The notes beneath the pieces were generated by a model. It was not told the origin of the DNA. It saw only the letters and a list, made by a program, of their open reading frames with translations, and did not search any database. From positions 5,400,001-5,432,000 of the forward strand of contig NZ_RSDW01000001.1 in assembly GCF_003945235.1 (NCBI RefSeq): 32,000 nt of DNA, given 5' to 3'. The DNA is from Edaphobacter aggregans. GTDB taxonomy: Bacteria; Acidobacteriota; Terriglobia; Terriglobales; Acidobacteriaceae. Below, piece by piece: positions 6,001 through 24,030 of the stretch; positions within the stretch are counted from its first letter, which is position 1; each line of letters begins with the position of its first letter. Both the position numbers and the translations under genes were made by a program.

Positions 6001-6276
6001 GATTTTGTACTCATAGCTGGTTGTGTCGCAGCCCGGCAACGTCCAGGAACTGCCAACGGAATTACCTTCATGTCGCTTGAGGATGAAGAGGGGCTCGCCA
6101 ACCTCATCATCATGGTCGATGTTTACGAAAGAAATCGATCAACAGTCATCCGCAGCAAGTTCGTTCTCGCGGGCGGCGTCCTACAGGTTCACGACGACGT
6201 CATCCATGTAAAAGCGGCATGGCTGAGGCCGCTTTCCGATCAGGCGCTGGAGGTGCAATCACATGACTTCCACTAA
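3058..6276 (+). CDS. dnaE2: Error-prone DNA polymerase III alpha-type subunit DnaE2 (ImuC)
   Basis: PHP N-terminus YVELHAASAFSFLEGAS, then GFAGYFLIVWDVV, RGSAANSAVCYALEIT, WPDIDLDLPS, HSGGMVI, FQIESRAQM, LIRPGP, FPESHAASF and a C-terminal OB-like region. I chose the ATG at 3058 (MIDRYVELH) because it overlaps the imuB stop as ATGATTGA; this gives 1072 aa. Confidence 0.95.
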   Translation: MIDRYVELHAASAFSFLEGASEPEKLVERAFELGMPAMALLDRNGVYGSARFHTSAKRNEVRAHIGAEVAVSSLGSRLTPPAWLPYQHITEPARLPLLCETREGYQNLCRLITRFKMRETKKQEGAAIFDDLERHASGLVCLTGGDEGPLAAALMRGGERAGSETVERLVRIFGQNNVYVELQRHCEREEEWRNQAAIRIARSLQLPVLATNGVRYAIRYDKEILDVFTAIRYHTELDRAGRLLSLNNRRHLRTAKEMNALFRDVPNATENTVELSSRLKFELDDLGYEFPSYPVPDGETMDSFLRKRVTEGVQRRYGPKNNRDLYKRAEKQVERELALIEKLGFAGYFLIVWDVVQFCKRNGILIQGRGSAANSAVCYALEITIVDPVGMDLLFERFLSESRNEWPDIDLDLPSEDKREQAIQYVYRRYGELGAAMTANVITYRAKSATREVGKVMGLDPDSLDKMSGGVGNWEWRGPNDTMAHSYKSAGFDLSNSRIAKTLEVAMRIQGLPRHLGQHSGGMVICQGQLDQVVPLERASMPGRTVIQWDKEDCADMHIIKVDLLGLGMMAVLAGCLDLVPEFYGDRIDLAQLPEDDDVYRTIQRADTIGMFQIESRAQMASLPKHRPRSRYCITKQVALIRPGPIHGDMTHPYLERRMGRQPVTYPHPSLKPVLERTLGVPLFQEQLLKMAMIAGNFSGADADELRRAVGMKRSWERMKNLEGKLRAGMTENGIDPKSQDQIVKNISSFALYGFPESHAASFGELAYDSAYIKVKYPEAFLCAILNNQPMGFYSAATLVKDAQRHGVHVRSIDVQTSNWQCTIERGEHEKLSVRIGLGYVKNLTKRSAEALVAVREADGPFRSAEDLTQRVPSLTRHELARLAGVGALNNLEGIEHRRDAIWQVERAGKLEGPLFRQNSDVLRDDDASLPLQQMSTEERLVADYAGTSLTIGKHPMAYRREALRKQNVLSSNDLQNRRHGDFVLIAGCVAARQRPGTANGITFMSLEDEEGLANLIIMVDVYERNRSTVIRSKFVLAGGVLQVHDDVIHVKAAWLRPLSDQALEVQSHDFH

Positions 6277-6701: not shown

Positions 6702-9700
6702 GTGATCTCCCGCTATGTACTTTGGAACACCGTTACCCCTTCTACCCCACCGGAACCTGTATCTGTTGCGCTAAAGCAGGCTTTCCAACTTCCAATTGAC
6801 AATCTTGAATCAATCGTTCCGACCTCACTGGCTACGGCAACTCGAATTGCGATTCGAGAATTCCTCGTAACAACCGATGCAGGCCGCGAGTTGGCCGTTT
6901 ATAAGGGAACGCAGCCCCTTTGGCTGGCCCCGTGCGGACAGACATCGATCTCCGATATGGACCTGTCCGTGCGTTCCTTCAATTGTCTGGTTGGCGCGTC
7001 AGTCGCGACTTTGGACGATCTGCTTGCATGGACTCCGAACAAACTCTTGAGCTTGGAACACTTCGGAAGAAAATGTCTCAATGAGATTACCGGGCTTCTA
7101 AGCGACCTTGGATATATTGCAGCTGACGAAGATAGCCCATTCTTCAAAGGTCATCGAACGGGCAACCCATCCGATGACGGCTGCCCGTTCGCCTGCCTGT
7201 TGGCGATTCGGGAGGTGCTTCCCGAAGGGCCACTGCGGACAAAGCTCGAGATGTGCGATTGGACCACGATTGGAGATATCGCGCTTCACCCAATCTCCGA
7301 TGCGTCAATATTCGCAGACCTTACTCAGGAAGAGCAGAATACACTCCAGAACATCTTTCAAAACCTTTCTCTAACCTTGCCTGTTCGGGAATCTGAATGG
7401 GTAACGACTCATGTTTCCGAACTGCGCCGTGTTTTCTCGTCTGAGCTGAGCGCACTTGGGCAGGCTCTCAATGTTGACGACAAACAGCCTACAAGCGACT
7501 CGATCGTTTTCGTTGGAAGCGCCAGCTCGTTGACTGAAGAACTTGATCGACTCATTCCGCCCAAGTACAAGCCGCAAAAACGGTCTATCATCGCTGCGCT
7601 CTTCGGGCTTGATGGCGCTGATCCTCTTACGCTCGAAGAGGTTGCTAAGCGACAGGATCCGCCGATGACGCGGGAGCGAGTCCGCCAGATCGGATCCCCA
7701 TTTCTCAATCGCATCACTTCAGAGGGCAGAAATCTAATCTGGCTTCATAAAGCCCTTGAGACACTGACAGAGGAGATTCCTTGTACACAAGTTCATGCAG
7801 AGATACTTCTCATCGAACGGGGAATCCTCACCTCTCGCCTGTCTCTGACTTCTATTCTCAAACTCTTAAATCGGGCAGGGGTCGAGCATCAGCTAATTCT
7901 GGAATTCGGGCTTCTGCTTTCGAAACAGACCTTGTCTGTCATGAAAGCTGCTGTCTCCAGTGCTCGCAAGAGTTCTTCCCACTGGGGCGTGGCCGACTGG
8001 GAAGAAGTACGGGCTCCGTTGGGCCAATATGGGCATATCATCCGCCCCATTCTTCCCTGGGTTACTTGGCTAGGAGATTCCGAGAGATACTTTGTCTTTC
8101 CAGATGGAGAGAACAGTCTCGCAAACCGGCTGGCTCGGATGTTGCATGTGGCACCCCGGCTTCCGCTTTCGATTGCGTATGAGGCGATCTTTCGGGACAA
8201 TCGGGTGGATTGCTCTCGCCTCCCTAGGGAACATTTCGCTTCGTTCTGCGGACTCTGGCCTTGGTGCAAGCTCGACGGCGACGAGATCGTCTCTATTGGC
8301 ACGCTTCCTCCTGTCGAAGCCTCTGGCGACGATCTTCTGGTCATTCTGATCCGCGAATTCGGCAGACCCGCCACGAGACAGGAGATTTTGCAACGAGCAC
8401 GCATTGAAGGCATTGGCGACGTGACCGTCAACCAGGCCTTGAGTTACAGTAATGTCCTGATGGGGGCTAGTGGTCGGTATTGGGTGGTTGGAGACCCACC
8501 CTTCGTGGAAGAATCCCGCGATTCACAGGCAAAGACCTCCGAGCCTTCTCCTTTAGTGGAGATTACTTCGGGCGATCTTGCTGCTGAGATCATCTCCCAA
8601 GACGGCTCGACAGGACATTCACCCAGTGGAATCTCTAAGCTTGACCCTGCATCCGAGCAGTTCGTAGAGCGCTTGACCCTGGAAGTGCAGCGGCGGGTCG
8701 TCAAGAGACAGCTTGCAACGCCATGGTCAGTAGCAGAACTCGCCCTGGAGGATGCGGAACGATCAGTATTGTTTGAATGGGGTAGCCTCGCGCAATGGGA
8801 TTACCGCAGGGACAATGTTCGATTCAATGACATCGCGAATGAAAGGATTCGCCGGCGCGCCGCGCTCGGGCTTGCGTTCATGGTATTCGCTGCGGAAGCC
8901 GTCCGAAAGCTCGGCGGATCGGGGGTTGTATGGCCCGCGATAAATAAGGCTCTCGGACCGCAGCAACGTCAATTGTTCCTCGCGCAGGAGAGTTCCCCGA
9001 AAACAATGTTGCGAGAAGGAGTGGAGGAGGCTTGCAGGGTCTTCGGGATCAGACACGATTTTGGCGAAGCCGGGCATCAGGTTTGGGTGCGGACGATTGG
9101 CGTTCAGTATGCCATTCCGCTCTCTCAGCTTCCATCCTTACCTCAAATGTTGACCGAATCGTTTGAATTTAATCCGATATCGGTCCAATCACTTCTCAGT
9201 CCGTCGGACAAAATGTACTCGCCTTCGTTCACCGAGGCGTGGAACACTATGAGGCGTCTGCGGCACGGCGACCTTAGCGCGGGCACTGCGGAACAACGGC
9301 TCAAGAAAAATTGCTGGACGATGCATTTCCCTATCGCGGAGCTCCTTGATTGGTGTCTTGCCTCCGCGCCGGCTCGTGCAACCACGAATCAAGGTCTCAC
9401 CCGAGAATCGGAAGGTCTGGCTTATTCCTATTTTGATCAGCCCTCGCTACGATGGGTTGGGGACAACCCGTTTCTTGAATATGCCTTGCACCAGCGGCCG
9501 CCCGCGTGGGTCGAATTAGGCCCGTTGATGTTCATTTCCACTGAACCAGTTAAAAAGGAACAGGTGCTTATCGGCGAGGATGGCTGGCGATTTGCATACG
9601 CTCCATTGTCGATTTCGTTGAGCCACCATCCGTCGACCTATTTCTCCTTCGATCTTCGGTATCGAGGCTCCTCCCAGCTCGCGGAACCAATCGTGCAATC

Positions 9701-11504
9701 GCTGGTACCACCAACCGGGCTCGCCTTCTTCGATGCTTCAGGAGCATTTATCGGCGACAGTGAAACCGCTGTTCCTCTTGACGAATCTGTCACACTACTT
9801 CACGCAGCAGATGTGCAATTCGAAGGAGTTTCGAACCCTCTGCCGTTCCGTTCGATATTTGCCGGATCGTATCGTCTCACTCGATTTCGAGCTGGGGTCT
9901 TGGCTGGGATCACTGTGTTCAATCATTCTGGGGAGCTACTCTGGACCCATGCGGAGGAGGACAGCGAGGCCACGGAAGTTGTCCAAAGTGCCGATCTCGA
10001 CGGGGCGCGATGGGGACATCCTGCGCGCCTTCGGCTACCAACAACAGACTTCGAGCCACATCGGGTTCGGCTCATGAATGGTGAAACCGTTGTATTGCCT
10101 CCGCCAGGAGAAACGACAGTGGTGGAGTTGACGCCCAGCTTGAGTCGAGCGAAATATGCCCGTTTACAGGGATACGCGGGCGTCCACGCGCGATCGGTCA
10201 AGATCCAGTTTCGCCACCTATCGCAGCAGTATGGTGCGGCTTTGGAAGCAAACGGAGCCTGGCAGGCACTACAGGAAAACTCCTCGGTTGAAACGTCCAG
10301 ATTGAGGACGAACCGGTTGCTGGCCCAATCGAAGGACTGGGACTTCGATCCGGAGGAAGCACGGTGGATGGAGGGGAGTCGCGTCATCGCACGACCGCGC
10401 ACCTACGGAACCATCCTGACCGAATGCGAGGGCCTCGGCGCGGGGCTTTGTCTGGCCGGTAAGACCTACAACGAATACCAATCCGGGCTGCGGGCCGCGT
10501 CGGCTGTGATCGACGTAGGCGAATTGAGAAATGTGACTCGACATGATGACAAGAGCTGGAGTGCGCTGCTTCCCTTCGAAGATCCTTTATCCGCAGAGCA
10601 TTGTTTGTGGGCGTGGACTTCAAATTCAAGGCTTCCGCAACCCATCCCAGTTACAGGCCTGGTCAAAAATGGGTCAGAGCTGAAGTGGCGGTTGAGCGTC
10701 ACCGCAGAAGTATTTGGGTGGGCTCTTTCCTTTCGCGGCGCCAGAGTTGGCTCAATGTGTGTGGAGGCGGGATTGTTCCGGTTCGCGGAGCACCTCTCCC
10801 GCGGCGATTGGAGTTCCGACTGGAAGTCCACTTCAGCGTGGATTCGCTGGTGGCATTGCCCTGTATTTCATCCCTCATGGAATGCTGAGATCAAGAAGCT
10901 TTGCATGTTGGCACCCGTGGATACCTGCGCTGCCTGGCTACTGCCCGCGTGTCCGAATTCCTCGATGGTTAACGATGAAGGGCGCGAAGAAGCGTGGGCA
11001 TCTGCCTGCCGCGAGCTGCTTTGGTCATGGCGACCAACCAGCTACGAAGCCAGAGATCTGATGGAGGGCCTGGATATCTGGTCCGGTGACATTGCCAGGG
11101 ATTCGACAGGCGTAAAACTGGAACCGATAGGGAGACTCGCTCGCTGCAATCCCATTCTACTTTCAAGAGCTGCTAGTCTTGCGGCCCCGGAGTTGTACAA
11201 CTACCCGCGTAATCAATTGGTGATTCTTATCCGACTTCTACTCGATGCTATTAACCCGAACGCAGTACGGACCGGATTCGATCTGCGGACACTTTGCGAG
11301 CGTTACGCGCAAGGCGAGAACCGGTTGGACGGCGAATTTATTCTGAGAAGCCTGGTAGTAGACGCCAGGGCAATCCTTGCGGGGCAGGACAGAAAATCGC
11401 ATAACCTCTTGATCGCGTTCCACAACGCAGGATTGCGAGAGATAGTGGCGATTGCACTACTGCTCGATACCATCACGACCTGGCAAGTCGGGGGGAGCGA
11501 CTGA
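6702..11504 (+). CDS. Giant (about 1600 aa) uncharacterised protein with N-terminal RpoA alpha-CTD-like HhH module(s) and a sigma-70 region-4-like HTH. It is the partner of the downstream helicase (DruH-like position).
   Basis: A single uninterrupted 4.8-kb frame. The listed start is GTG at 6702, so the exact start is uncertain. LSVRSFNCLVGASVATLDDLLAWTPNKLLSLEHFGRKCLNEITGLL matches the alpha-CTD pattern (LSVRS.NCL....I.T..DL......LL...NFG.KSL.EI). FGLDGADPLTLEEVAKRQDPPMTRERVRQIGSPFLNRI matches sigma-70 region 4.2. The remaining 1250 aa or so contain no motif I recognise. Confidence 0.85.
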   Translation: MISRYVLWNTVTPSTPPEPVSVALKQAFQLPIDNLESIVPTSLATATRIAIREFLVTTDAGRELAVYKGTQPLWLAPCGQTSISDMDLSVRSFNCLVGASVATLDDLLAWTPNKLLSLEHFGRKCLNEITGLLSDLGYIAADEDSPFFKGHRTGNPSDDGCPFACLLAIREVLPEGPLRTKLEMCDWTTIGDIALHPISDASIFADLTQEEQNTLQNIFQNLSLTLPVRESEWVTTHVSELRRVFSSELSALGQALNVDDKQPTSDSIVFVGSASSLTEELDRLIPPKYKPQKRSIIAALFGLDGADPLTLEEVAKRQDPPMTRERVRQIGSPFLNRITSEGRNLIWLHKALETLTEEIPCTQVHAEILLIERGILTSRLSLTSILKLLNRAGVEHQLILEFGLLLSKQTLSVMKAAVSSARKSSSHWGVADWEEVRAPLGQYGHIIRPILPWVTWLGDSERYFVFPDGENSLANRLARMLHVAPRLPLSIAYEAIFRDNRVDCSRLPREHFASFCGLWPWCKLDGDEIVSIGTLPPVEASGDDLLVILIREFGRPATRQEILQRARIEGIGDVTVNQALSYSNVLMGASGRYWVVGDPPFVEESRDSQAKTSEPSPLVEITSGDLAAEIISQDGSTGHSPSGISKLDPASEQFVERLTLEVQRRVVKRQLATPWSVAELALEDAERSVLFEWGSLAQWDYRRDNVRFNDIANERIRRRAALGLAFMVFAAEAVRKLGGSGVVWPAINKALGPQQRQLFLAQESSPKTMLREGVEEACRVFGIRHDFGEAGHQVWVRTIGVQYAIPLSQLPSLPQMLTESFEFNPISVQSLLSPSDKMYSPSFTEAWNTMRRLRHGDLSAGTAEQRLKKNCWTMHFPIAELLDWCLASAPARATTNQGLTRESEGLAYSYFDQPSLRWVGDNPFLEYALHQRPPAWVELGPLMFISTEPVKKEQVLIGEDGWRFAYAPLSISLSHHPSTYFSFDLRYRGSSQLAEPIVQSLVPPTGLAFFDASGAFIGDSETAVPLDESVTLLHAADVQFEGVSNPLPFRSIFAGSYRLTRFRAGVLAGITVFNHSGELLWTHAEEDSEATEVVQSADLDGARWGHPARLRLPTTDFEPHRVRLMNGETVVLPPPGETTVVELTPSLSRAKYARLQGYAGVHARSVKIQFRHLSQQYGAALEANGAWQALQENSSVETSRLRTNRLLAQSKDWDFDPEEARWMEGSRVIARPRTYGTILTECEGLGAGLCLAGKTYNEYQSGLRAASAVIDVGELRNVTRHDDKSWSALLPFEDPLSAEHCLWAWTSNSRLPQPIPVTGLVKNGSELKWRLSVTAEVFGWALSFRGARVGSMCVEAGLFRFAEHLSRGDWSSDWKSTSAWIRWWHCPVFHPSWNAEIKKLCMLAPVDTCAAWLLPACPNSSMVNDEGREEAWASACRELLWSWRPTSYEARDLMEGLDIWSGDIARDSTGVKLEPIGRLARCNPILLSRAASLAAPELYNYPRNQLVILIRLLLDAINPNAVRTGFDLRTLCERYAQGENRLDGEFILRSLVVDARAILAGQDRKSHNLLIAFHNAGLREIVAIALLLDTITTWQVGGSD

Positions 11505-11505
11505 A

Positions 11506-14500
11506 ATGGAGATCCAAGACACGCTGCATCTCGATGCGGTAACAGCGCAGCATCAACTTCGGGACCGCCTCGTAGGGTTGGCGCGAAGCGAGTCTTTCGT
11601 CCGGTCCCCCGCAGTTTCTGCTGCGTGCGAACGGCTCTGGCTCGCCAATGGCGATGCCGCAGGGCTGCTGAGTGAGATATGGGTTGAATCTCTATTCCCT
11701 GCAAAATCTTCGGGTATCTCGCTGAAGACCACAGCAAACGTCGCGCCGTCGCTGCTTCGCCAGCTCGAGCGTTCGGCGGCTCTCCCTCTGGATCGCAAAC
11801 TCTATGACCATCAGGCCCGGACGATTCAACTCGAATACTCGAGCCGTGGCACAGATGAACGCCCTGCAATGATTGTCTCGGCTGGAACCGGCGCCGGCAA
11901 GACCGAAGCGTTTCTATTGCCGATGCTGAACGATCTCTTTTCAACGCCCCGGAAGGCAGGTGAGACCGGCGTCCGAGCGATCCTGCTCTACCCCTTGAAT
12001 GCGTTAGTTAACGATCAGATTGAGCGGCTCCACGGATGGCTCAAGGGGCAAGGCGAGATTACGGTCATTCACTATACGAGCGAGACCCCGCAGGATGAAC
12101 CAGATCCCAAGGCGGTATTCGATCCCAGCCGGCTGCGAACACGACTTGAGGCGCAAAGAAATCCTCCGGATATCTTGATCACAAACTACTCGATGCTTGA
12201 GTACCTCCTCTGTAGGCCTCAAGACAATCCACTCTTCGGAAAGGGTCTGCGGACGCTTGTCCTCGACGAGGCACACCTTTATAGCGGAAGTCTCGCAGCT
12301 GAAATTTCTCTTCTGTTGCGACGTGTCATGTTACGTTGCGGCGTCCCAAGCGAGCGAGTACTCCAAATTGCAACCTCCGCAACGCTTGGAGGCAGCTCTA
12401 GCGAGATCAAAGACTTTGCCGCCGGCATCTTTTCGAAGTCTCTCTCTCTGGTCCACCATATACCCGGCAAGACCTCCCGTCGGGAGCTGCCGAAGCAAGC
12501 GAGTCCCTCAGCTCAGTGCAGGCCGGAGGATATGCTGAAGCTCACCGAGGCGATTAAGTTGCGCCCCCTGGTAGATGCGAAGGGGCTGCGCACCGATCCG
12601 GAGCTATGCGATGAACTCCGCGCGCTCTCTCCACTATTCGTTGATTCTCGGGCGCATTTCGATTCGGACGAGAGAAGGCCTGCGAGCCTCCTGCACGCAC
12701 TGATCGGCCAAATGCCTCAGCTTCACACCTTAGACAACCTGTTCTGGAATCACCACGAAACTGGATCCGTCATGAAATTGCGCGAAGTCGCCCAAGAGAT
12801 TTGGCAGGCAAACTCTCAGCTCGCGATGCGAGCCACTGTGGCGCTACTCCAGTTGGGATCTCAGGCTCGATTGAATCTCCAGGAATTACCTCTGTTACCT
12901 CACAAGCTACACCTTCTCGCCCGCGCACCCGGGCCGATCAGCGTTTGCGTGAATCCCGACTGCAACGCGGCGCCTGAGGATCGAATCCCCGGTGGAGGTG
13001 CCGTCTCGCTAGACTCGGGGGGGGCCTGCAAGCATTGCGGGTCTGCAACCTTATCCTTGGCACGGTGTAATAGATGTGGCTTGGAGGCGGTCGCTGGAAG
13101 CCGGAGATCCGACAATACGCTACACCCTCGAGGCCAAACATTTGGCCGAGCTAGAAGAAATGCAAGCGAGATGTTTTTTCAGCTCGCTCCCGATGGAGAC
13201 GTCTTTTACAACATCGCGACACGTGATTGTGAGGAGGGCGGCCAGACGGTTCGCATGGCCGAAATTGTGCTTTGCCCGCATTGCGGGGCGGAGGATGATC
13301 CATTTCGTTCCCTAAGCTTGCTGGATGCCCTCGTTCTCCCTGTGGTAGCAGAGACTTTACACGCTTCCCTCCCAGTCATATCGGATCACGAACGCGCCTG
13401 GCTTCCGGCCGGCGGCAGGCGATTGCTTGCATTTAGCGACAGCCGTAACAGGGCGGCGCGGCTAGGCCCACTTTTAACGCGAAGCCATGAAATCCAGATG
13501 GGGCGCTCGTTGATCGATCAGGTGCTAGGCACAGCAACGCCGGACGCAGGTGTTCGGAGGCTTCGTCAGCGGAATATTCAACGAACATTGGAGGATCTCG
13601 CAAGCTCCGATCTAAGCGCCTCGTTGAGGGCAGAACTCGAATCCGATCTGAGGTCCCAACGAACTGAACTCGAAGCAATCGATTTGGGCATAACCATTGA
13701 AGAGTTGGGCAACCGTCTCAAGCACGCACCCGGACTGGCTCAGTTCTACTGCCGTCCTAGCGCAGTCACGCAACGGGCGGCCGAATGGACTCAAACTACA
13801 TGGGAGCGCAATAGAACGGAGATGATGGCGTGGGCGCCGACGATCCTCTCGAGAGAACTCGCCGTACCGGCATGGCAACGGTTGTCGCTTGAGTCGGCAG
13901 GTCTGGTTGAGATCGTATATCCGGGAATAAGCGATTGGAGGCCGCCGGTCGGCCTGGGCTTTACGCCCGCGATAGCAGACGGTCTCAAAGAACAATGGCC
14001 CGTCCTCATTGCAGCCTTACTGGACATCGCGAGAAGGGACCGTGCCGTGACTCTCGGCTCACGCGATCGAGATCATGTTGAATACTCGACGCCTCTTGGG
14101 AAGTGGATGAGCTTACGAACACGTTCCGACACATCTTTGATCTCCTTTGCAGGATCGGCGCAAGGCAGTCGATCGCGGAGGCCTGCGCTCGTCGTGAAGC
14201 TGCTAGAGCGCTTAGGTTGCGTCTCTCGAATTGACGAGCTTACCTCCCAGGTGTTGGAGGCTGTCTTTCAGCAGTTGATCGATGCTGGCCAACAAGGCCA
14301 GTTGCCTTGGATTGAAGTTGGTGATCGGCAAAGCAGGGACGGGATCTCACGAGCCTTCAGACTGAAATTTGATGGACTTCGTGTTCGGCGCCCGTTCAAT
14401 CTCTATCGCTGTGAAGTCACGGGAGAACTTTGGCCCAGGTCTCTCTTGGGGCTCTCGACGACATCTACTGATGGGCGATCTGACCTGAAACCGGTCACTC

Positions 14501-16620
14501 ACGCCGAAGCCGACCAAGATCCACGTTTTGCACGGACGCGTCAGGAAATCCGCTCATCTGAGATATTCCGGATCGGCATTTGGGCTGACGAGCATTCGGC
14601 ACAGCTTGATCCCAAGGAGAATCGCAGACTTCAGGATCTCTTCTCTAAAGGGGCGCGCAATATCCTCTCGGCTACGACAACGCTTGAAGTTGGTATTGAT
14701 ATTGGCGGGCTCTCTGCCGTTCTGCTGGGCAATGTGCCTCCTTCTCGGGCTAACTATCAACAACGCGGTGGTAGAGCTGGCCGACGTGCAGATGGGTCGT
14801 CACTAGTCTGCACATTCGCACCAAACCGCCCCTTCGACCAGGCAGTATTCAATCACTTCAGCCATTTCTTCAGCAAACAGTTGCGTAAGCCCACAGTTCG
14901 CCTTGGGCGTGAGCGCTTCGGGCGTAAGCATGCCCACTCGTTTCTCCTGGGAGAATTCTTTCGGCGCATATATCCAGCAGGAACGACCGTTACCACAATG
15001 AACGCCTTTAATCAGATGGGTTGGCTCTGCGGAGAACAACAAGTTCCAAGGCAGGTCGCCGACCAACCACGAGTCGAGCAACTCATGTCCCCAAACGCAC
15101 TCATTCTGGATGAATCGGCTTCCTGGTGGGTTAGCGGTGATGCCCCGTTTCTACAGTTCGATCACTTCCTCGGTTTTCTTCTTACCGGAGAGAATTCGGT
15201 CAAAGTTCAGCTCGAAGCCTTGCTGCAGGACACGCCGCTCAGCGATACCGTCAACCGCGTGATCTCAGACGCTCAGTCTTCGTTCCGATCCGCGTGTGTG
15301 GCCTGGTCGAAGGACTATCGGTCGTTGGTGAGTGCGTGGCAGTCGGGAATTGCGTCAGGTGTTCCGAATTCAACGCTGAACGCGATCCATTATCAAGCGA
15401 AGACCCTCTGGCAAACGACGACGATCTCGTCGCTAGCTGAGAGGCGGTTCCTCCCACGGTATGGATTTCCTCTGGACGTTCAAGTTTTGACCGCCTTGAC
15501 GGAAGGTCGCGAGGAACCCGTCCGTTTTCAGCGCGGTTCGCTTCTCGCGCTGAGCGAGTACGTCCCCGGGTCAGTCCTGCTCGGAGGAGGGCGCAGTTAC
15601 ACATCAAGAGGCATTCTGAACTTTTGGTCCGCGAGCGGGGACAAGAGTTTTGGCCTCAGGAAATTTCAGTATGCGTGTCAGTCCGGACATCGATGGACTG
15701 AGCTCCAGCCCCTACAAGGGGACCGGTGCCCAACTTGCAATGACTTTCTTCAGAGTTCTGGACGAGAACTGCTGATTCCCACATTCGGCTATTCCACGGC
15801 TCAATGGGACCCGCCGACCTGGGAAGGAGCGCAGGAGCGAATAGGTGAAACGCAAGTACTGGCGTCCGGTTTTCTGACAGCTGGAGCTTCGCCGATCATC
15901 ACGGATTTTGCAGGAATTGTCGGCATGTCTGCCGCCCCACACGAAAACGCGGAGTTGCTTGCAACCAACTCAGGTGAATTTGACGCCGGCTTTGCCATCT
16001 GCACTAAGTGTGGCTTTACCGACAGTATGAGATCAGGGGCGGACGACCTTCCCCGGAGCGGGGAGGGCGTCGATTTCAACGAACACCTACCGCTGCGCTC
16101 AAGACTTAACAGCAAGAAGTGCTGGAATAAAGGAGAAGAACCTGTACTTCGACATCAACATTTAGCAGCACAACACAACACGGACCTGTTGGAGCTTGAT
16201 CTCGAAGATGTACCCGGCCTCCGTACAAGGGTTATGGCAATGACCTTCGCTCACGCTGTTCACTTAGCTGCGGCAGAATTGCTCGAGGTGGACTCGCGCG
16301 AAATCAGTCTCTCAGTCCATGAGATCGATGACCAAACGTCGTGGAAGATCCAGCTCTACGACTCCGAGGCTGGTGGCTCGGGGCACATCCTTGAACTGGC
16401 TGAGAGGCATCATGAATTGCCTGCAGTGCTTAAGCTCGTACTTTTTCGAAATGCTCAACACAATGCAATATGTACTAGTGCGTGCATCCAATGTCTGCTA
16501 ACGCAAGGGAGTCAAGATGCATACGAGGCCGGGCTTCTTGATCGGCGCGCTCTTCTCGATCTGTTGATAACGACTGAATCCACAGATTGCGTAACCGAAT
16601 CGAGTTCCACTGCGTTTTAA
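11506..16620 (+). CDS. Giant DEAH-box SF2 helicase with Zn-ribbon insertions and a C-terminal DUF1998/MZB domain (DruE/DrmAB/MrfA-like)
   Basis: The ATG at 11506 is 1 nt after the upstream stop (TGA 11502-11504) and is preceded by a GGGGGGAG Shine-Dalgarno sequence; the listed 11452 is a TTG. Helicase motifs: Q-like LYDHQ, motif I SAGTGAGKTEA (from 11881), motif II LVLDEAH (DEAH 12265-12276), motif III ATSATL, motif IV-like LLAFSDSRNRAARL, EHSAQL, motif V ILSATTTLEVGIDIGGL, motif VI QQRGGRAGRR. Cys clusters: CVNPDCN..CKHCG..CNRCG and CPHCG. The C-terminus carries RFLPRYGFPLDV...ALSEYVPGS, CPTCN, CTKCG, LYDSEAGGSGH and CTSACIQCL, typical of DUF1998. Confidence 0.9.
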   Translation: MEIQDTLHLDAVTAQHQLRDRLVGLARSESFVRSPAVSAACERLWLANGDAAGLLSEIWVESLFPAKSSGISLKTTANVAPSLLRQLERSAALPLDRKLYDHQARTIQLEYSSRGTDERPAMIVSAGTGAGKTEAFLLPMLNDLFSTPRKAGETGVRAILLYPLNALVNDQIERLHGWLKGQGEITVIHYTSETPQDEPDPKAVFDPSRLRTRLEAQRNPPDILITNYSMLEYLLCRPQDNPLFGKGLRTLVLDEAHLYSGSLAAEISLLLRRVMLRCGVPSERVLQIATSATLGGSSSEIKDFAAGIFSKSLSLVHHIPGKTSRRELPKQASPSAQCRPEDMLKLTEAIKLRPLVDAKGLRTDPELCDELRALSPLFVDSRAHFDSDERRPASLLHALIGQMPQLHTLDNLFWNHHETGSVMKLREVAQEIWQANSQLAMRATVALLQLGSQARLNLQELPLLPHKLHLLARAPGPISVCVNPDCNAAPEDRIPGGGAVSLDSGGACKHCGSATLSLARCNRCGLEAVAGSRRSDNTLHPRGQTFGRARRNASEMFFQLAPDGDVFYNIATRDCEEGGQTVRMAEIVLCPHCGAEDDPFRSLSLLDALVLPVVAETLHASLPVISDHERAWLPAGGRRLLAFSDSRNRAARLGPLLTRSHEIQMGRSLIDQVLGTATPDAGVRRLRQRNIQRTLEDLASSDLSASLRAELESDLRSQRTELEAIDLGITIEELGNRLKHAPGLAQFYCRPSAVTQRAAEWTQTTWERNRTEMMAWAPTILSRELAVPAWQRLSLESAGLVEIVYPGISDWRPPVGLGFTPAIADGLKEQWPVLIAALLDIARRDRAVTLGSRDRDHVEYSTPLGKWMSLRTRSDTSLISFAGSAQGSRSRRPALVVKLLERLGCVSRIDELTSQVLEAVFQQLIDAGQQGQLPWIEVGDRQSRDGISRAFRLKFDGLRVRRPFNLYRCEVTGELWPRSLLGLSTTSTDGRSDLKPVTHAEADQDPRFARTRQEIRSSEIFRIGIWADEHSAQLDPKENRRLQDLFSKGARNILSATTTLEVGIDIGGLSAVLLGNVPPSRANYQQRGGRAGRRADGSSLVCTFAPNRPFDQAVFNHFSHFFSKQLRKPTVRLGRERFGRKHAHSFLLGEFFRRIYPAGTTVTTMNAFNQMGWLCGEQQVPRQVADQPRVEQLMSPNALILDESASWWVSGDAPFLQFDHFLGFLLTGENSVKVQLEALLQDTPLSDTVNRVISDAQSSFRSACVAWSKDYRSLVSAWQSGIASGVPNSTLNAIHYQAKTLWQTTTISSLAERRFLPRYGFPLDVQVLTALTEGREEPVRFQRGSLLALSEYVPGSVLLGGGRSYTSRGILNFWSASGDKSFGLRKFQYACQSGHRWTELQPLQGDRCPTCNDFLQSSGRELLIPTFGYSTAQWDPPTWEGAQERIGETQVLASGFLTAGASPIITDFAGIVGMSAAPHENAELLATNSGEFDAGFAICTKCGFTDSMRSGADDLPRSGEGVDFNEHLPLRSRLNSKKCWNKGEEPVLRHQHLAAQHNTDLLELDLEDVPGLRTRVMAMTFAHAVHLAAAELLEVDSREISLSVHEIDDQTSWKIQLYDSEAGGSGHILELAERHHELPAVLKLVLFRNAQHNAICTSACIQCLLTQGSQDAYEAGLLDRRALLDLLITTESTDCVTESSSTAF

Positions 16621-16664: not shown

Positions 16665-16769
16665 ATTGGAGCTAAATCGCTGATGCACTCATCTGGGAGG
16701 CAACACCGACCGACTTCACATTTGTGATCATGTTGATCTGTAAGGTTGTCGTTTACAGTAATCCCAGCG

Positions 16770-18275
16770 ATGAAAGATCCAGACTCGAATGGCAGCCGCC
16801 TGACCAATCTCGCGAGACGCTGGCGCAAGCGACTCACCCAGGCGCAACCGGAAGCAGATTCTCAAGAGACGTTCTTCTCGCCACCACCACGGGCCGAGGG
16901 GACTAGCGTCGTGGTAAGAGCAATCGTACCGATGCCAGCTGTACCTACCCCGATAGAAGAATCCTCAACCGACCCTGAGCTTACGACGGACCAGGCAGAG
17001 GCGCTCCGTAAGATTGAAGCCGCCTACGAGCCAGGCGAGTTCTACCTACTTACGGGGCACGCTGGCTCAGGCAAGACGTATCTCATGCAGCGGCTAACGA
17101 AGAACATGCTGGCAAAGAAGCGCCGGATCGTTCTCACTGCACCCACGCACAAGGCGGTCGCGGTCCTCGCGCGCAAACTGGCCGAGGCCAACATCAAGGA
17201 CGTACCATGCCGCACGATCCATAGCATCCTCAGCCTAACGCCGAAACCTCGGACGGATCGGCTCGTTTTCGAAAGAGAGCGCGACGCAGAACCCGTCACG
17301 GCCGATGTCGTAGTTGTCGACGAATGCAGTATGGTTTCGGAGGATTTATACCGCCATATAAAGCGGCACCTGCCCAATGCCTTCGTCCTATTTCTTGGGG
17401 ATCCCGCTCAGCTGCCTCCAGTAGGAGAAGTAGAAAGCCAGACGTTCGCAACAAAGAATCGGTCGCACCTCACGACGATTGTGCGGCAAGCGGCTGGGAA
17501 CCCGATCCTGGCTGCCGCAGGCATCATCCGCGCCAGTCAGGGAGGACCGGCGGATATGTCGTGGTGTGCGGCGGCTGCGCTTGAAACCAAGCAGGGCATT
17601 TTCCTGCCAGCCGATGCAGCGCACCGGTGGATGAAGAAGGCCTTCACGTCGCCGGAGTTCGACGCCGACCCGGATAGCTTCCGCTACCTCGCATGGACAA
17701 ATTCGCGTGTTCATCAGGTGAACGAGTTAATCCGGGCTTGGCGGTACGGCGCAAATATTCCGACGCCGTTCATGCCTGGCGAAAGTGCGCTGTTCCGCGC
17801 TCCCGTTGTAATCGACGAGTCCATCATCTTCGCCAACAATCAGGAAGCCAGAGTTATAGCGATTGAACGATCGACGTTCACTCACGAGATTCAGGAGGCT
17901 GATGGCGTTCCTCAATGGACAGCCTCGATCCCATCCTGGAAGATCACACTTCGCGATGTCGAAGGCATCGACAAAGCGGTTCATATGCACGCTGATGAGC
18001 GCGAGTTTCAGAGGGTAATTGAGCGGATAAAGGATGAAGCGGCTGAGTCACGTCTACGATGGAAGCACCTTCATGGGTTCCAGCAGAGTCTGGCACAGCT
18101 GCAATCTGTCTATTGTCTGACGGTTCATCGGAGTCAGGGCTCAACATTCCAGACTGCGTTTCTCGACCTACCTGACATACGCCGGCGCGAAAAAACCAAC
18201 CTATTGGAAGCGCAACAAATGCTATATGTGGCTGTGACCCGGCCCTCGCAGCGCCTGATAGTGGTTGGGGAGTGA
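16770..18275 (+). CDS. SF1B RecD/Dda/Pif1-like DNA helicase (AAA_30 plus UvrD_C-type)
   Basis: Motifs: Walker A TGHAGSGKTY, TAPTHKAV, Walker B VVVDECSMV, LFLGDPAQLPPV, TIVRQ, LTVHRSQGSTF, LYVAVTRPSQRLIVVG. I prefer the ATG at 16770 (MKDPDSNG...) to the listed TTG at 16746. The N-terminal 90 aa or so are low-complexity. Confidence 0.85.
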   Translation: MKDPDSNGSRLTNLARRWRKRLTQAQPEADSQETFFSPPPRAEGTSVVVRAIVPMPAVPTPIEESSTDPELTTDQAEALRKIEAAYEPGEFYLLTGHAGSGKTYLMQRLTKNMLAKKRRIVLTAPTHKAVAVLARKLAEANIKDVPCRTIHSILSLTPKPRTDRLVFERERDAEPVTADVVVVDECSMVSEDLYRHIKRHLPNAFVLFLGDPAQLPPVGEVESQTFATKNRSHLTTIVRQAAGNPILAAAGIIRASQGGPADMSWCAAAALETKQGIFLPADAAHRWMKKAFTSPEFDADPDSFRYLAWTNSRVHQVNELIRAWRYGANIPTPFMPGESALFRAPVVIDESIIFANNQEARVIAIERSTFTHEIQEADGVPQWTASIPSWKITLRDVEGIDKAVHMHADEREFQRVIERIKDEAAESRLRWKHLHGFQQSLAQLQSVYCLTVHRSQGSTFQTAFLDLPDIRRREKTNLLEAQQMLYVAVTRPSQRLIVVGE

Positions 18276-18307: not shown

Positions 18308-19813
18308 CTACATGTAATACCTGAATGATGACAGCGGAGTGGTCGAATCATCCTCTCCATACTCAGCCATGATGCCCCCAATCTTCCTTGAAAAGGCGAG
18401 CGTCACCGGTTGTCCTCCTGACATACTGGCGGTATTCCAGTTCATTCGCGCCAATCCGAGAATGTCTTTCGCTACCTGTTCGAGGTCAATTATCCGGTCG
18501 CTTCGTAACTCCACGGGCGCAGGTATATGTGGGCCAGGATAGGTGCCGATTGACGGCATATATCCCGTTGTAAAGAGGAAGGATTTCGATCCGTTCACCA
18601 GACAAAGAGTCCCGCGGTTTGGGGGGTATGAACCAAATCGCAGCAGCCGAAATTGCGTTGGCATGATGTTTATGAGCTCCACAACAGGAACCGAAGTTAG
18701 TGCATGACGAAAGCCTTCACTCTCGGCTTCACTAAAGGCCGACGTCTTGTGAAAAACCATTCGTACAGGATCACCACCCGTTCGATCACGATATTCCTCC
18801 AAGACGTTTGTAGCCAAAGCAGCCGCTTGGATGTCAGTCAAATGTACGTTACGCCCTTGGTCTTCGCTCCAGTCTACGTTTCCTCCACGCAGTGCGAACC
18901 CTTCCCCTTTGCTCGAAAAGGCCTGCGCGATGCTCGATTGAACGAGATGTCGTTGAGTTGTACGTAAGTGATGAAAACTAACTCCTACGAAACATGTCTC
19001 TGGGCCATCGAGATTGAGACGCCACGGGATGCCGCCAGCCTTGTAATAAAGGGCTACAGTGCTGTTCCATGCTCTGATATTAGGCGCCTGGTTAGATTCC
19101 TGGTCCTCTACCATGTGTCGCGTAGCGATCTGAACTGGCATTCGAAACCGCATTGCGCGAGCTTTGAGAGCCCTTCTGAAGTCGCGCTGAAGAAGATCCT
19201 CAGGCTGCTCCTCAACAGGCTGGCTATCAAAAGAGAGGGATAGTTGGGGATCACTCTGCTTCTTCTTGAGAGCAGCTACCGCTGCCTTGTCTTCCTTGGT
19301 CAGAGTCTCATTCAGCGACCAGCAACGAGCGATCAACTCGTCTGGCAGACAACACAAAACTACGTCCGGCTTCTTTGTCTCCAGAGAAGAAAGTTGTCGG
19401 ACCCCTTCTGCATACAGCTCCAAAACCGCTTCGAATCGGGTCTTCGGATCACTCAGGTTGAGACAGTTCGCAAGTTCGCCCGATTCACCACCCAGACTTT
19501 TGACGAATCTCGTATTCTGTATCAGCTTGGCGCGGAAGATGTCTTGGAATCCCGGGAAGGCTGGGTATTGAGTCATGTCAGATGAGGCTTCGGGTAGGAT
19601 TTGTTGGCAACGTTCAAGCCATCTCTGAGTGGCATCAATCATCATGTCCGGGCCTACTAGTCCAACTGTGATGGTTTCATTTCGCCCGGCACCGAAGCGC
19701 AGGTCGAACGGGCCGGCCTCCCGAAGGCCCTGTCGCATATCAGAAAATTCGCCGGGGCCGCCAAATTCAAGAAGCGGCTCCGGTAACTGACGAAGATCAA
19801 TTCGAATCGGCAT
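18308..19813 (-). CDS. Short prokaryotic Argonaute (MID plus PIWI only), predicted catalytically inactive
   Basis: End-to-end pattern match to short pAgos as I recall them (e.g. the SPARTA Ago): N-terminus LPEPLLEFGG...GLREAGPFDL, ALKARAMRFRMPVQIA (MID), ALYYKAGGIPWRL, and C-terminus GQPVTLAFSRKIGGIMAEY...SSFRYYM. The PIWI catalytic positions read GVSFHH and FHKTS instead of G.DV.H and HRDG. The ATG at 19813 (MPIRIDL) overlaps the upstream gene's stop by 17 nt; the listed 19834 is a TTG. Confidence 0.9.
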   Translation of the reverse strand: MPIRIDLRQLPEPLLEFGGPGEFSDMRQGLREAGPFDLRFGAGRNETITVGLVGPDMMIDATQRWLERCQQILPEASSDMTQYPAFPGFQDIFRAKLIQNTRFVKSLGGESGELANCLNLSDPKTRFEAVLELYAEGVRQLSSLETKKPDVVLCCLPDELIARCWSLNETLTKEDKAAVAALKKKQSDPQLSLSFDSQPVEEQPEDLLQRDFRRALKARAMRFRMPVQIATRHMVEDQESNQAPNIRAWNSTVALYYKAGGIPWRLNLDGPETCFVGVSFHHLRTTQRHLVQSSIAQAFSSKGEGFALRGGNVDWSEDQGRNVHLTDIQAAALATNVLEEYRDRTGGDPVRMVFHKTSAFSEAESEGFRHALTSVPVVELINIMPTQFRLLRFGSYPPNRGTLCLVNGSKSFLFTTGYMPSIGTYPGPHIPAPVELRSDRIIDLEQVAKDILGLARMNWNTASMSGGQPVTLAFSRKIGGIMAEYGEDDSTTPLSSFRYYM

Positions 19814-23873: not shown

Positions 23874-24030
23874 GCGCTTGATTGTAAGCGAAGAGGCGGC
23901 GAAAACTGCAACAGGATCGGACACATAAAATGCACTGGGTAGCAAAAACTTGATCACCCATGTGCGTGCGCCCGTCTCCCGTGCAAGGTGGCCTCGTTTG
24001 CCAAGAGCTGTACCCTGCCTTGGAAAGGTG

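What the first reader, a model, noticed from the sequence alone, without database searches (positions are those of the whole stretch)
11506..16620. Helicase core split by two insertions of about 350-380 aa carrying Cys4 ribbons, plus a terminal DUF1998
Motifs I-III lie within residues 144-312 of the listed ORF. Motif IV-like LLAFSDSRNRAARL appears only at about residue 658. Motifs V and VI appear at about 1071-1112.

The first insertion contains CVNPDCN..(x19)..CKHCG..(x8)..CNRCG (nt 12946-13077) and CPHCG (from nt 13273). These are Zn-ribbon-like.

The DUF1998 part (nt 15439-16620 or so) has additional CxxC pairs: CPTCN, CTKCG and CIQC.

The insertions are large enough to be independent domains, such as sensor or nuclease domains, that motif reading cannot name.
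Basis: seen in the sequence. Interest (0 to 1): 0.55.

Follow-up and report, generated by a model that had tools for sequence, protein, structure and literature searches.

The report
Druantia III-B DruE helicase, ordinary architecture
The gene encodes a PLD-less (type III-B-like) DruE helicase of the Druantia anti-phage system, and the two large "insertions" with zinc ribbons are the standard accessory domains already seen in 2026 cryo-EM structures of E. coli and Pseudomonas DruE, so the finding is real but ordinary.

Summary
The protein is DruE of a type III Druantia defence system: PADLOC DruE3 scores E 1.7e-202, and it aligns in order with solved E. coli DruE 9tu7 (E 1.4e-83).

The two "insertions" are canonical DruE domains.
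- Insertion 1 is a WH/FHD (BrxA-like) helical domain plus the double-zinc dZBD/ZBM_L, also called "INS".
- Insertion 2 is the four-helix dimerisation bundle (DD/PD) plus the duplex-binding DBD/Cap, also called "Stalk".

Published work assigns them duplex binding, a lock loop, dimerisation and DruH docking. Profiles built from the insert segments alone find the matching segments of E. coli DruE. All 8 Cys of insertion 1 are invariant in 69 homologues. No nuclease signature was detected.

The protein stops where the dispensable PLD domains of III-A DruE begin, which makes it III-B-like.

The more unusual feature lies upstream. A DruH-like partner (6702-11504) carries an N-terminal RNA-polymerase alpha-CTD, a sigma region 4 and winged-helix units. 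This extension appears only in an Acidobacteriota subclade.

The parts
11506..11805 (+). DruE N-terminal region (residues 1-100)
   Evidence: Confident helices and strands in the AF2 model. A corresponding N-terminal region (NTR) is described for DruE and MrfA in the literature. Boundaries are approximate.
11806..12465 (+). RecA1 (residues ~101-320): motif I GTGAGKT 127-133, DEAH 254-257, SAT 291-293
   Evidence: Pfam DEAD E 5.3e-21. Motif positions. Aligns to 9tu7 residues 110-310.
12466..12885 (+). First half of insertion 1: helical WH / five-helix / BrxA-like domain (residues ~321-460)
   Evidence: Six helices between 340 and 453 in the AF2 model. Occupies the same position as the WH/FHD of E. 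coli DruE. An ins1 profile matches EcDruE 379-514.
12886..13320 (+). Second half of insertion 1: double zinc-binding beta domain (dZBD / ZBM_L / INS; residues ~461-605) with 8 invariant Cys (481, 486, 508, 511, 521, 524, 590, 593). The low-confidence loop ~541-553 is the likely 'lock' loop.
   Evidence: Cys invariance. All-beta model with pLDDT<50 at 548-550. phmmer aligns 427-531 to 9tu7 392-493, including the CxxC pairs. A dZBD-only profile hits EcDruE 445-517 at E 2e-7. Weak Pfam double-zinc-ribbon hits.
13321..13497 (+). RecA2, N-terminal part with motif IV LLAFSDSRNRAARL (residues 606-664)
   Evidence: Aligns to 9tu7 591-689, where the motif reads LLTFTDSRQGTARI. Highly conserved in the family (0.72 majority frequency).
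13498..13725 (+). Start of insertion 2: helical dimerisation bundle (DD / PD / Stalk helix; residues ~665-740)
   Evidence: Long helices 647-677, 681-698, 705-727 and 731-738 in the AF2 model. The position matches the PD of EcDruE at P680-Q758. Boundaries are approximate.
13726..14571 (+). Rest of insertion 2: duplex-binding / Cap / 'MarR-like' domain (residues ~741-1022), with the conserved SLETxGL motif (E796) and D840/R843
   Evidence: pLDDT is mostly above 85. An ins2b profile hits EcDruE 809-886 at E 1.4e-6. No Pfam family at E<=10.
14572..14895 (+). RecA2, C-terminal part with motifs V (TLEVGIDIG, 1059-1067) and VI (QQRGGRAGRR, 1085-1094)
   Evidence: Pfam Helicase_C E 4.1e-12.. Aligns to 9tu7 1076-1211.
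14896..16245 (+). eWH plus OB/CON/Zn region (OBZ; residues ~1131-1580). Contains the wedge Phe F1321 in YGFP and two CCHC-type sites (C1391/H1395/C1408/C1411 and C1499/C1502/His in FNEH/C1539).
   Evidence: Alignment to 9tu7 1212-1717. The GFP Phe aligns with the published wedge F1327. Conserved C and H columns.
16246..16620 (+). MZB (DUF1998) zinc module and C-terminus (residues 1581-1704; H1652/C1656/C1660/C1663). The protein ends where the PLD1/PLD2 domains of III-A DruE begin.
   Evidence: Pfam MZB 29.9 bits, above the 24.2 cut-off. Aligns to 9tu7 up to 1717 of 2108. The published truncation DruE(1-1723) is functional.
6702..11504 (+). Upstream partner gene (1600 aa). The DruH-like body (residues ~645-1600) runs alpha-helical domain, Ig-like array, alpha-helical domain. 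It is preceded by an RNAP alpha-CTD (80-134), a sigma-70 region 4 (~276-345) and about three winged-helix units (408-600).
   Evidence: Pfam RNA_pol_A_CTD E 1.6e-15. PDB profile hits to alpha-CTD (E 6e-20) and sigma region 4 (E 3e-8). AF2 model. Foldseek hits to multi-Ig proteins. The body family lies immediately upstream of DruE in 63 of 76 genome loci.

Best explanation
Nt 11506-16620 encodes DruE, the signature YprA/MrfA-type SF2 DNA helicase of a two-gene type III Druantia anti-phage system. It is the compact, PLD-less form that the literature calls III-B.

The two insertions are the standard DruE accessory domains.
- After RecA1 comes a helical WH/FHD domain.
- A double-zinc beta domain (dZBD) follows at the start of RecA2.
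- After motif IV come a helical dimerisation bundle (DD/PD) and a duplex-binding Cap/DBD domain, before RecA2 resumes with motifs V and VI.

By analogy with the solved E. coli and P. aeruginosa proteins (inferred, not shown here), dZBD and DBD form the platform and entry channel for the DNA duplex. A dZBD loop acts as a lock. The DD holds DruE as a dimer and is the docking site for DruH. The eWH/OBZ/MZB roof with the wedge Phe (F1321 here) drives 3'-to-5' unwinding from ssDNA-containing replication or recombination intermediates of the phage.

The zinc ribbons are structural or DNA-contact elements, not catalytic. With no PLD domain present, any DNA degradation would have to come from the upstream DruH-like partner or from host nucleases.
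For: Family assignment:
- PADLOC DruE3 E 1.7e-202, with further DruE1/2/4 hits.
- phmmer to solved DruE 9tu7: E 1.4e-83, five segments in order, including the Zn-ribbon segment and motif IV.
- BLASTP to full-length E. coli DruE: one alignment spanning residue 117 to at least 1450, E 5e-81.
- Precomputed Pfam YjiV_N hits on homologues.

The inserts are conserved DruE parts:
- Insert-only profiles detect the matching EcDruE segments at E 7e-10 and 1.5e-6.
- The inserts are present in every one of 69 homologues, with 8 invariant Cys.
- They are present in genome loci from more than 10 phyla whose matches span residues ~8-1150.
- The AF2 model is confident, and its order of helical, beta and helical-bundle segments matches the published domain order.

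YprA/MrfA relationship: Foldseek's best solved structure is MrfA 6znp, which aligns only the core.

III-B-like form: the protein ends at the position equivalent to 9tu7 ~1717-1723, before the PLDs, and DruE(1-1723) is functional in E. coli. A PLD-less 1667-aa DruE with a 1132-aa DruH defends M. smegmatis.

Context:
- A large gene abuts the start codon upstream, and this partner is conserved across homologous loci.
- Homologous loci sit in mobile elements: a conjugative element and a Tn7-like element.
- A short pAgo/SIR2-APAZ defence system lies next door.
Against: - No experiment exists for this locus.
- Identity to solved DruE is only ~25%, and inside the Cap/DBD region the alignment is anchored by a few motifs only.
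- Per-domain structural superposition on 9tu7 was not possible. The Foldseek PDB copy ends 2026-04-08 and holds no DruE, and the tool cannot search model segments.
- The published clamp residues W1480 and H1698 align with Ile and Asp here, so details of strand handling may differ.
- The upstream partner is not detectably homologous in sequence to III-A DruH. PADLOC gives no DruH hit. hhalign gives E 0.003-0.03 and probability at most 11%. HMM searches give nothing.
- The III-B label rests on absence of PLD and on published descriptions, not on a phylogeny computed here.
Confidence: 0.9

Rival explanations
1. One of the inserted domains, most plausibly the ~280-aa Cap/DBD for which no homologous fold is known, carries a lineage-specific catalytic or sensor activity. 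It might be a cryptic nuclease that replaces the missing PLD domains in PLD-less DruE.
For: The protein lacks the PLD domains, which one group found essential for DNA degradation in P. aeruginosa DruE. Insert 2 has invariant acidic and basic residues (E796, E802, D840, R843, R892, R978) and no Pfam annotation.
Against: E796, D840 and R843 are also conserved in PLD-containing E. coli DruE, and E802 is Gln there, so they are not a III-B-specific substitute. Cryo-EM assigns this domain duplex binding and dimer contacts. DruE(1-1723) without PLDs is fully protective in E. coli, and no nuclease activity was seen there. No nuclease family hit at E<=10.
Confidence: 0.05
2. The helicase is a housekeeping DNA-repair enzyme of the MrfA/YprA type. 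It would work with the neighbouring SOS and damage-tolerance genes (imuA-imuB-dnaE2 upstream; dinB and the SRAP gene downstream), not in phage defence.
For: MrfA is the best solved structural match available to Foldseek. The gene pair sits between imuA/imuB/dnaE2 and dinB/SRAP.
Against: MrfA lacks both insertions: its whole chain is 751 aa, and its motif V region aligns at 332-421 against 1036-1126 here. Scores to DruE models are vastly higher. Homologous gene pairs lie in unrelated contexts, including a conjugative element and a Tn7-like element. A pAgo defence system is adjacent.
Confidence: 0.03
3. The protein belongs to another defence clade of the YprA family that shares the same inserted domains (ARMADA, BRIGADE, TALON, or Druantia type I/II), not to Druantia III.
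For: The BrxA-like, ZBM and MarR-like insertions are shared by all these clades. PADLOC DruE1, DruE2 and DruE4 models also score well.
Against: The top PADLOC models are DruE3 (E 1.7e-202 and 4e-151). No BrxHII-like helicase, PglX methyltransferase, DruA-D or DruM/F/G genes appear among the ORFs scanned in the window. The locus has the two-gene layout with a large upstream partner typical of type III. There is no C-terminal Vsr or EEP nuclease domain.
Confidence: 0.03

Closest known systems
E. coli Druantia type III-A DruE (PDB 9tu7-9tuc; strains ATCC 8739/EDL933; 10.64898/2026.05.13.724758 and 10.64898/2026.05.12.722862)
   Same: The domain order is the same: NTR, RecA1, WH/FHD, dZBD (2 Zn), RecA2 with the embedded DD and DBD/Cap, eWH, OBZ (2 Zn), MZB (1 Zn). 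Helicase motifs I-VI, the motif IV sequence, the wedge Phe in GFP and the MZB Cys cluster are conserved. A large partner gene lies directly upstream.
   Different: - About 25% identity.
- Lacks the two C-terminal PLD-like domains (1704 versus 2104-2114 aa).
- The clamp residues W1480 and H1698 are not conserved at the aligned positions.
- The partner is not recognisably similar in sequence to III-A DruH and carries an N-terminal alpha-CTD/sigma-4/wHTH extension.
Druantia type III-B (Bell et al., PMC12458937, representative GIH50614.1) and the M. smegmatis DruH-DruE system (MSMEG_1253/1254; PMC13316683)
   Same: Compact DruE of ~1670-1700 aa with DEAD, Helicase_C and DUF1998 and no nuclease domain. 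Two-gene operon with the partner upstream. Published annotation of BrxA-like, ZBM beta-barrel and MarR-like inserted domains in III-B DruE.
   Different: M. smegmatis DruH is 1132 aa; the partner here is 1600 aa because of its RNA-polymerase-like N-terminal modules.
MrfA / YprA (PDB 6znp, Bacillus subtilis DUF1998 repair helicase)
   Same: RecA1/RecA2 core, N-terminal strand and an OB-CON-MZB canopy with a zinc cluster. It is the best Foldseek match in the available PDB copy (E 3.8e-9).
   Different: MrfA is 751 aa and has neither the WH+dZBD nor the DD+DBD insertion. It is a repair enzyme, not part of a two-gene defence operon.
DISARM DrmA/DrmB
   Same: YprA-family helicase core and DUF1998 zinc module. 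PADLOC DrmA matches the core motifs (E 4e-18).
   Different: In DISARM the DUF1998 module is a separate protein (DrmB), and the BrxA-like, ZBM and MarR-like insertions are absent. No DrmC, methylase or DrmD genes are present here.

Membership tests
Druantia DruE (type III) | SF2 DEAH helicase core with motifs I-VI | tested here: met
   Pfam DEAD E 5e-21 and Helicase_C E 4e-12. Motifs located.
Druantia DruE (type III) | C-terminal MZB/DUF1998 zinc module fused to the helicase | tested here: met
   Pfam MZB 29.9 bits against a 24.2 cut-off, residues 1581-1664. The Cys cluster aligns with the mutated, essential MZB cysteines of 9tu7.
Druantia DruE (type III) | DruE-specific accessory domains embedded around RecA2 (WH/FHD, dZBD with two Zn sites, DBD/Cap, DD/PD) | tested here: met
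   phmmer and BLASTP alignments in matching order. Insert-only profiles hit EcDruE. 8 invariant Cys. AF2 secondary-structure order. A per-domain 3-D superposition was not possible.
Druantia DruE (type III) | Match to curated DruE type III profiles | tested here: met
   PADLOC PDLC00037 DruE3 E 1.7e-202, PDLC00035 E 4e-151, PDLC00036 E 3e-129.
Druantia type III system | Co-oriented druH gene immediately upstream of druE | tested here: inconclusive
   A 1600-aa gene abuts druE. Its body family is upstream of DruE in 63 of 76 loci. Its model runs alpha domain, Ig-like array, alpha domain, like DruH, with Foldseek hits to multi-Ig proteins. Homology to III-A DruH is not significant: hhalign E 0.003-0.03 and no PADLOC or HMM hit.
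Druantia subtype III-A | Two C-terminal PLD-like domains on DruE | tested here: not met
   The protein ends at the equivalent of 9tu7 ~1717 of 2108. The last ~380 positions of PADLOC profile PDLC00037 are unmatched. No PLD Pfam hit.
Druantia subtype III-B | Compact DruE without a nuclease domain, in the distinct 'type III-like' branch of the YprA tree, paired with one partner gene | tested here: inconclusive
   Absence of a nuclease domain and the two-gene layout are met. Branch placement relative to GIH50614.1 could not be computed.
Druantia (any type) | Protection against phage infection | not testable with these tools
   Needs a phage challenge of the cloned operon.
ARMADA | [quoted passage not shown] | tested here: not met
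   The neighbours are the alpha-CTD partner, a RecD-like SF1 helicase, pAgo/SIR2-APAZ and repair genes. No methyltransferase or BrxHII was found.
DISARM | DUF1998 module on a separate DrmB protein, plus DrmC (PLD) and a methylase | tested here: not met
   Helicase and MZB are fused in one 1704-aa ORF. There are no DrmB, DrmC or methylase hits in the window.
MrfA/YprA repair helicases | Compact (~750 aa) core plus OB-CON-MZB without inserted domains, often with MrfB/YprB | tested here: not met
   About 650 extra residues lie between motifs III and V relative to MrfA. No MrfB-like exonuclease gene is adjacent.

The most novel reading that the evidence does not exclude
The evidence does not exclude that this acidobacterial locus is a functionally distinct Druantia III variant. 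In this reading DruE lacks any nuclease and relies entirely on its partner. The partner's N-terminal RNA-polymerase alpha-CTD, sigma region 4 and winged-helix modules would either tether the DruH-DruE machine to promoter-like or AT-rich phage DNA, or act as integrated decoys for phage proteins that hijack host RNA polymerase. The DruE dimerisation/Stalk insertion (residues ~665-1022) would then transmit that signal to the helicase.
Probability: 0.15. Interest if true: 0.6.

Novelty: new member of a known kind. Interest (0 to 1): 0.22.

Why it matters
For the finding as written, little changes. The "split" helicase core and its zinc ribbons are the hallmark architecture of DruE, now described structurally by several groups.

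The value of this check has three parts.
- It assigns a previously generic annotation ("uncharacterized protein DUF1998", RSL18964.1) to Druantia type III, in the PLD-less form.
- It shows that this form is widespread: at least 586 matches among species-representative genomes across many phyla. It almost always keeps a ~950-aa upstream partner whose sequence is not recognised by current DruH models, so tools such as PADLOC would miss the system.
- It flags an Acidobacteriota-specific partner variant fused to RNA-polymerase-like DNA-binding modules. That variant could help test how DruH finds its DNA substrate.

Tried and rejected
- Foldseek of the whole 1-1150 model against PDB. The hits are dominated by RecA cores (MrfA, DEAD-box, RIG-I). 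The library stops at 2026-04-08 and contains no DruE.
- Pfam on the isolated inserts at E<=10. Only sub-threshold zinc-ribbon hits appeared in insert 1, and nothing in insert 2.
- Tests of the upstream partner as DruH by sequence all came out non-significant. The tests were PADLOC at E<=10, phmmer and profile searches against PDB, which includes DruH 9tud, hhalign against a 31-sequence III-A DruH profile, and hmmsearch of the III-A profile against 146 family representatives. Only one short motif recurs: LF(A/C)SE..RR..G..W..I.
- I tried to match the published PaDruH catalytic residues (R22, K28, E64, E220) to Pseudomonas-type homologues. The numbering did not correspond, so I make no claim about them.
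- Looked for M. smegmatis or other named III-B loci through cluster names and a genome scan. None were among the returned loci.
- Tested whether the downstream RecD-like helicase is a conserved third component. It shares only generic SF1 motif similarity with the Pif1-like gene next to the Terracidiphilus homologue and is absent from other loci. Rejected.
One call failed on a frame error.
Full report
**1. What is there**

The long + strand ORF listed from TTG 11452 really starts at ATG 11506. That ATG lies one base after the TGA (11502-11504) of the preceding 1600-aa gene and is preceded by a G-rich Shine-Dalgarno-like run. The 1704-aa product is identical to GenBank RSL18964.1, "uncharacterized protein DUF1998" of Edaphobacter aggregans. 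The upstream product is 100% identical to an E. aggregans protein annotated "RNA polymerase alpha subunit".

In ATG numbering the elements are:
- Motif I GTGAGKT, 127-133.
- DEAH, 254-257.
- SAT, 291-293.
- Motif IV LLAFSDSRNRAARL, 640-653.
- Motif V TLEVGIDIG, 1059-1067.
- Motif VI QQRGGRAGRR, 1085-1094.
- Cys pairs at C481/C486, C508/C511, C521/C524, C590/C593, C1408/C1411, C1499/C1502 and C1660/C1663.

Two corrections are minor. One spacer is 20 residues, not 19. The Pfam MZB (DUF1998) match covers only residues 1581-1664.

**2. Family**

- Pfam finds DEAD, Helicase_C and MZB.
- PADLOC's best models are DruE type III (E 1.7e-202, 4e-151 and 3e-129), followed by DruE1, DruE2 and DruE4, and then, far weaker, DpdJ, BrxH and DrmA.
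- Against PDB sequences the best match is 9tu7, a 2108-aa E. coli DruE (E 1.4e-83). Five segments align in order: RecA1, the Zn-ribbon segment (query 427-531 to chain 392-493), motif IV (588-684 to 591-689), motifs V-VI, and the OB/MZB region up to chain residue 1717.
- MrfA (6znp) and Lhr match only the core.
- I recovered a full-length E. coli druH-druE pair by following the K-12 yjiT/yjiV remnants into strain 23CRST013. BLASTP of the window protein to that 2114-aa DruE gives one alignment running from residue 117 to at least 1450 (25% identity, E 5e-81).

**3. Are the insertions ordinary DruE parts?**

Yes, on four lines of evidence.

(a) Conservation. The database search returned 4409 relatives at E<=1e-10. 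The best 120 are ~1700-aa proteins covering 99% of the query at 39-96% identity. In a 69-sequence alignment both inserts have at least 98% occupancy. The eight Cys of insert 1 are invariant, and insert 2 has invariant W761, W766, E796, E802, W831, D840, R843, R892 and R978.

(b) Insert-only profiles. Profile HMMs built only from insert columns find the corresponding regions of E. coli DruE. Insert 1 matches Ec 379-514 (E 6.6e-10). The dZBD alone matches Ec 445-517 (E 2.3e-7). Insert 2 matches Ec 809-885 (E 1.5e-6).

(c) Structure prediction. An AlphaFold2 model of residues 1-1150 is confident (pLDDT 88.6, pTM 0.88) and shows this order:
- RecA1.
- Six helices (340-453).
- An all-beta region (466-602) with one disordered loop (548-550).
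- A RecA2 strand and helix with motif IV.
- Long helices (647-738).
- A mixed alpha/beta domain (742-1022).
- The rest of RecA2.

(d) Published architecture. That is exactly the architecture already described:
- Bell et al. describe a BrxA-like helical domain after RecA1, a beta-barrel zinc-binding module with at least two CxxC motifs at the start of RecA2, and an adjacent MarR-like domain inserted in RecA2. These are shared by ARMADA, BRIGADE, TALON and Druantia and are absent from MrfA and DISARM. Their Table S2 lists the same three domains for a III-B DruE.
- Hu et al. name them FHD, ZBM_L (two zinc sites), Cap and the protruding PD four-helix bundle (P680-Q758). Deleting PD abolishes dimerisation and defence.
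- The Beisel-lab preprint names them WH, dZBD, DBD and DD. It shows that dZBD and DBD form the duplex entry platform, that a dZBD loop is a "lock", and that five zinc motifs exist: 2 in dZBD, 2 in OBZ and 1 in MZB. This matches the five Cys/His clusters I count here.
- A P. aeruginosa study calls them INS and Stalk, "embedded within the RecA2 domain". The Stalk mediates dimerisation and contacts DruH.

**4. Nuclease or sensor folds?**

Nothing supports a hidden nuclease. Pfam at E<=10 gives only sub-threshold double-zinc-ribbon hits in insert 1 and nothing in insert 2. Foldseek on the whole model returns MrfA and other SF2 helicases. Its PDB copy predates the DruE depositions, and segments could not be searched, so this remains a limitation. 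The conserved acidic and basic residues of insert 2 (E796, D840, R843) are also present in PLD-bearing E. coli DruE. That argues against a III-B-specific catalytic replacement.

**5. What is different here**

The protein ends where the two PLD-like domains of III-A DruE begin. The literature calls this compact form III-B.
- DruE(1-1723) lacking the PLDs is fully active in E. coli (one search reports the same).
- A PLD active-site mutant abolished defence in the P. aeruginosa system.
- A PLD-less 1667-aa DruE with a 1132-aa DruH protects M. smegmatis.

The wedge Phe (F1327 in E. coli) is conserved as F1321 in a near-invariant YGFP motif. The clamp residues W1480 and H1698 align with Ile and Asp.

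**6. Surroundings**

The upstream gene (6702-11504) is the conserved partner.
- Large co-oriented genes abut DruE homologues in Terracidiphilus (1610 and 1576 aa, with alpha-CTD), a JGI contig (1509 aa), Belnapia (1409 aa, with Sigma70_r4) and an ENA genome (967 aa, no Pfam hit).
- The 967-aa protein aligns with residues 660-918 and 1341-1491 of the window partner.
- An exhaustive search with residues 644-1600 finds 375 representative proteins. Many are stand-alone proteins of ~900-1000 aa.
- In 76 genome loci from many phyla, this "body" family is the gene just upstream of DruE in 63. Only six, all Acidobacteriota, carry the alpha-CTD (one or two copies) plus sigma-4 plus middle module.
[quoted passage not shown] Foldseek hits are multi-Ig proteins such as contactin, neurofascin, titin and NCAM2.
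- This mirrors the published DruH architecture: an N-terminal alpha domain, six Ig-like domains, a C-terminal alpha domain, and similarity to ICAM/NCAM.
- Sequence homology to III-A DruH (the STY4851/ECs_5259 family) is not demonstrable. I therefore call the partner DruH-like by position and architecture only.
- Its alpha-CTD keeps the DNA-binding "265 determinant" residues (R91, N94, C95, G122, K124, compared with E. coli alpha from my own knowledge).
- Its sigma-4 segment resembles MzaA, a sigma-like component of another anti-phage system.

Further neighbours are:
- A RecD-like SF1 helicase (16746-18275), not conserved with DruE.
- A short pAgo plus SIR2-APAZ pair on the minus strand.
- Flanking both sides, imuA-imuB-dnaE2, dinB and an SRAP gene.
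- No tRNA gene.

**7. Verdict**

The insertions are not a new feature. They are the defining accessory domains of DruE, with experimentally assigned roles in duplex binding, locking, dimerisation and DruH docking. The gene is a new, uncharacterised member of the PLD-less (III-B-like) Druantia type III. The only element that looks under-described in the literature I could search is the RNA-polymerase-like N-terminal extension of the partner protein (no paper pairs DruH with "RNA polymerase alpha"). It lies outside the finding's coordinates.

Noticed in passing
window 6702-11504 (+): The DruH-like partner carries a ~640-aa N-terminal extension: an RNA polymerase alpha-CTD (residues 80-134, with DNA-binding determinant residues conserved), a sigma-70 region 4 HTH (~276-345, best NCBIfam hit MzaA) and about three winged-helix units (408-600). 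Among 63 DruE-adjacent partners, only 6 Acidobacteriota loci have it. Its sequence is not recognised by PADLOC DruH models or by a III-A DruH profile. GenBank annotates it 'RNA polymerase alpha subunit'.
   Followed up: partly
window 18308-19834 (-) and 19797-22574 (-): A short prokaryotic Argonaute (PADLOC pAgo_I, E 2e-146) overlaps a 925-aa SIR2-APAZ partner (Aga_SIR2-PNTD1-PNTD2, E=0). This is a SPARSA-type short pAgo defence system, convergent with the Druantia operon, so the region is a defence island.
   Followed up: partly
window 16746-18275 (+): A 509-aa RecD/Pif1-like SF1 helicase (AAA_30, UvrD_C_2) lies directly downstream of druE. It hits PADLOC candidate systems PDC-S68 and PDC-M16A (E ~1e-31). 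It is not conserved next to DruE homologues, and its role is unknown.
   Followed up: partly
window 520-6276 (+), 22761-23957 (-), 24291-24920 (-): The defence genes are bracketed by DNA-damage-tolerance genes: an imuA-like RecA-fold gene, imuB (IMS) and dnaE2 (PHP/Pol III alpha) upstream, and dinB (Pol IV) and an SRAP/YedK gene downstream. I did not examine whether the island inserted into an SOS gene cluster.
   Followed up: no
window 11506-16620 (annotation records): The same 90%-identity cluster holds an 808-aa RefSeq protein from the same 6.15-Mb E. aggregans contig (WP_260473022.1, 'DUF1998 domain-containing / helicase-related protein') alongside the 1704-aa GenBank model RSL18964.1. RefSeq may therefore annotate a truncated or split gene model, although the ORF is uninterrupted in this window.
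   Followed up: no
L004 12415-16856 and L005 2475-12122 (E. coli): E. coli K-12 yjiT (505 aa) and the yjiV pseudogene next to mcrBC are remnants of a Druantia III druH-druE pair. The pair is intact (1096 and 2114 aa) in strain 23CRST013. This K-12-type DruH is only distantly related (E 1.7e-21, N-terminal 250 aa) to the solved DruH 9tud, so E. coli carries at least two divergent type III lineages.
   Followed up: partly
L007 2363-8004: In one ENA genome the partner of a DruE homologue appears as three consecutive ORFs (821 aa with alpha-CTD and Sigma70_r4, then 690 aa, then 243 aa). It may be a naturally split or frameshifted version of the long partner.
   Followed up: no
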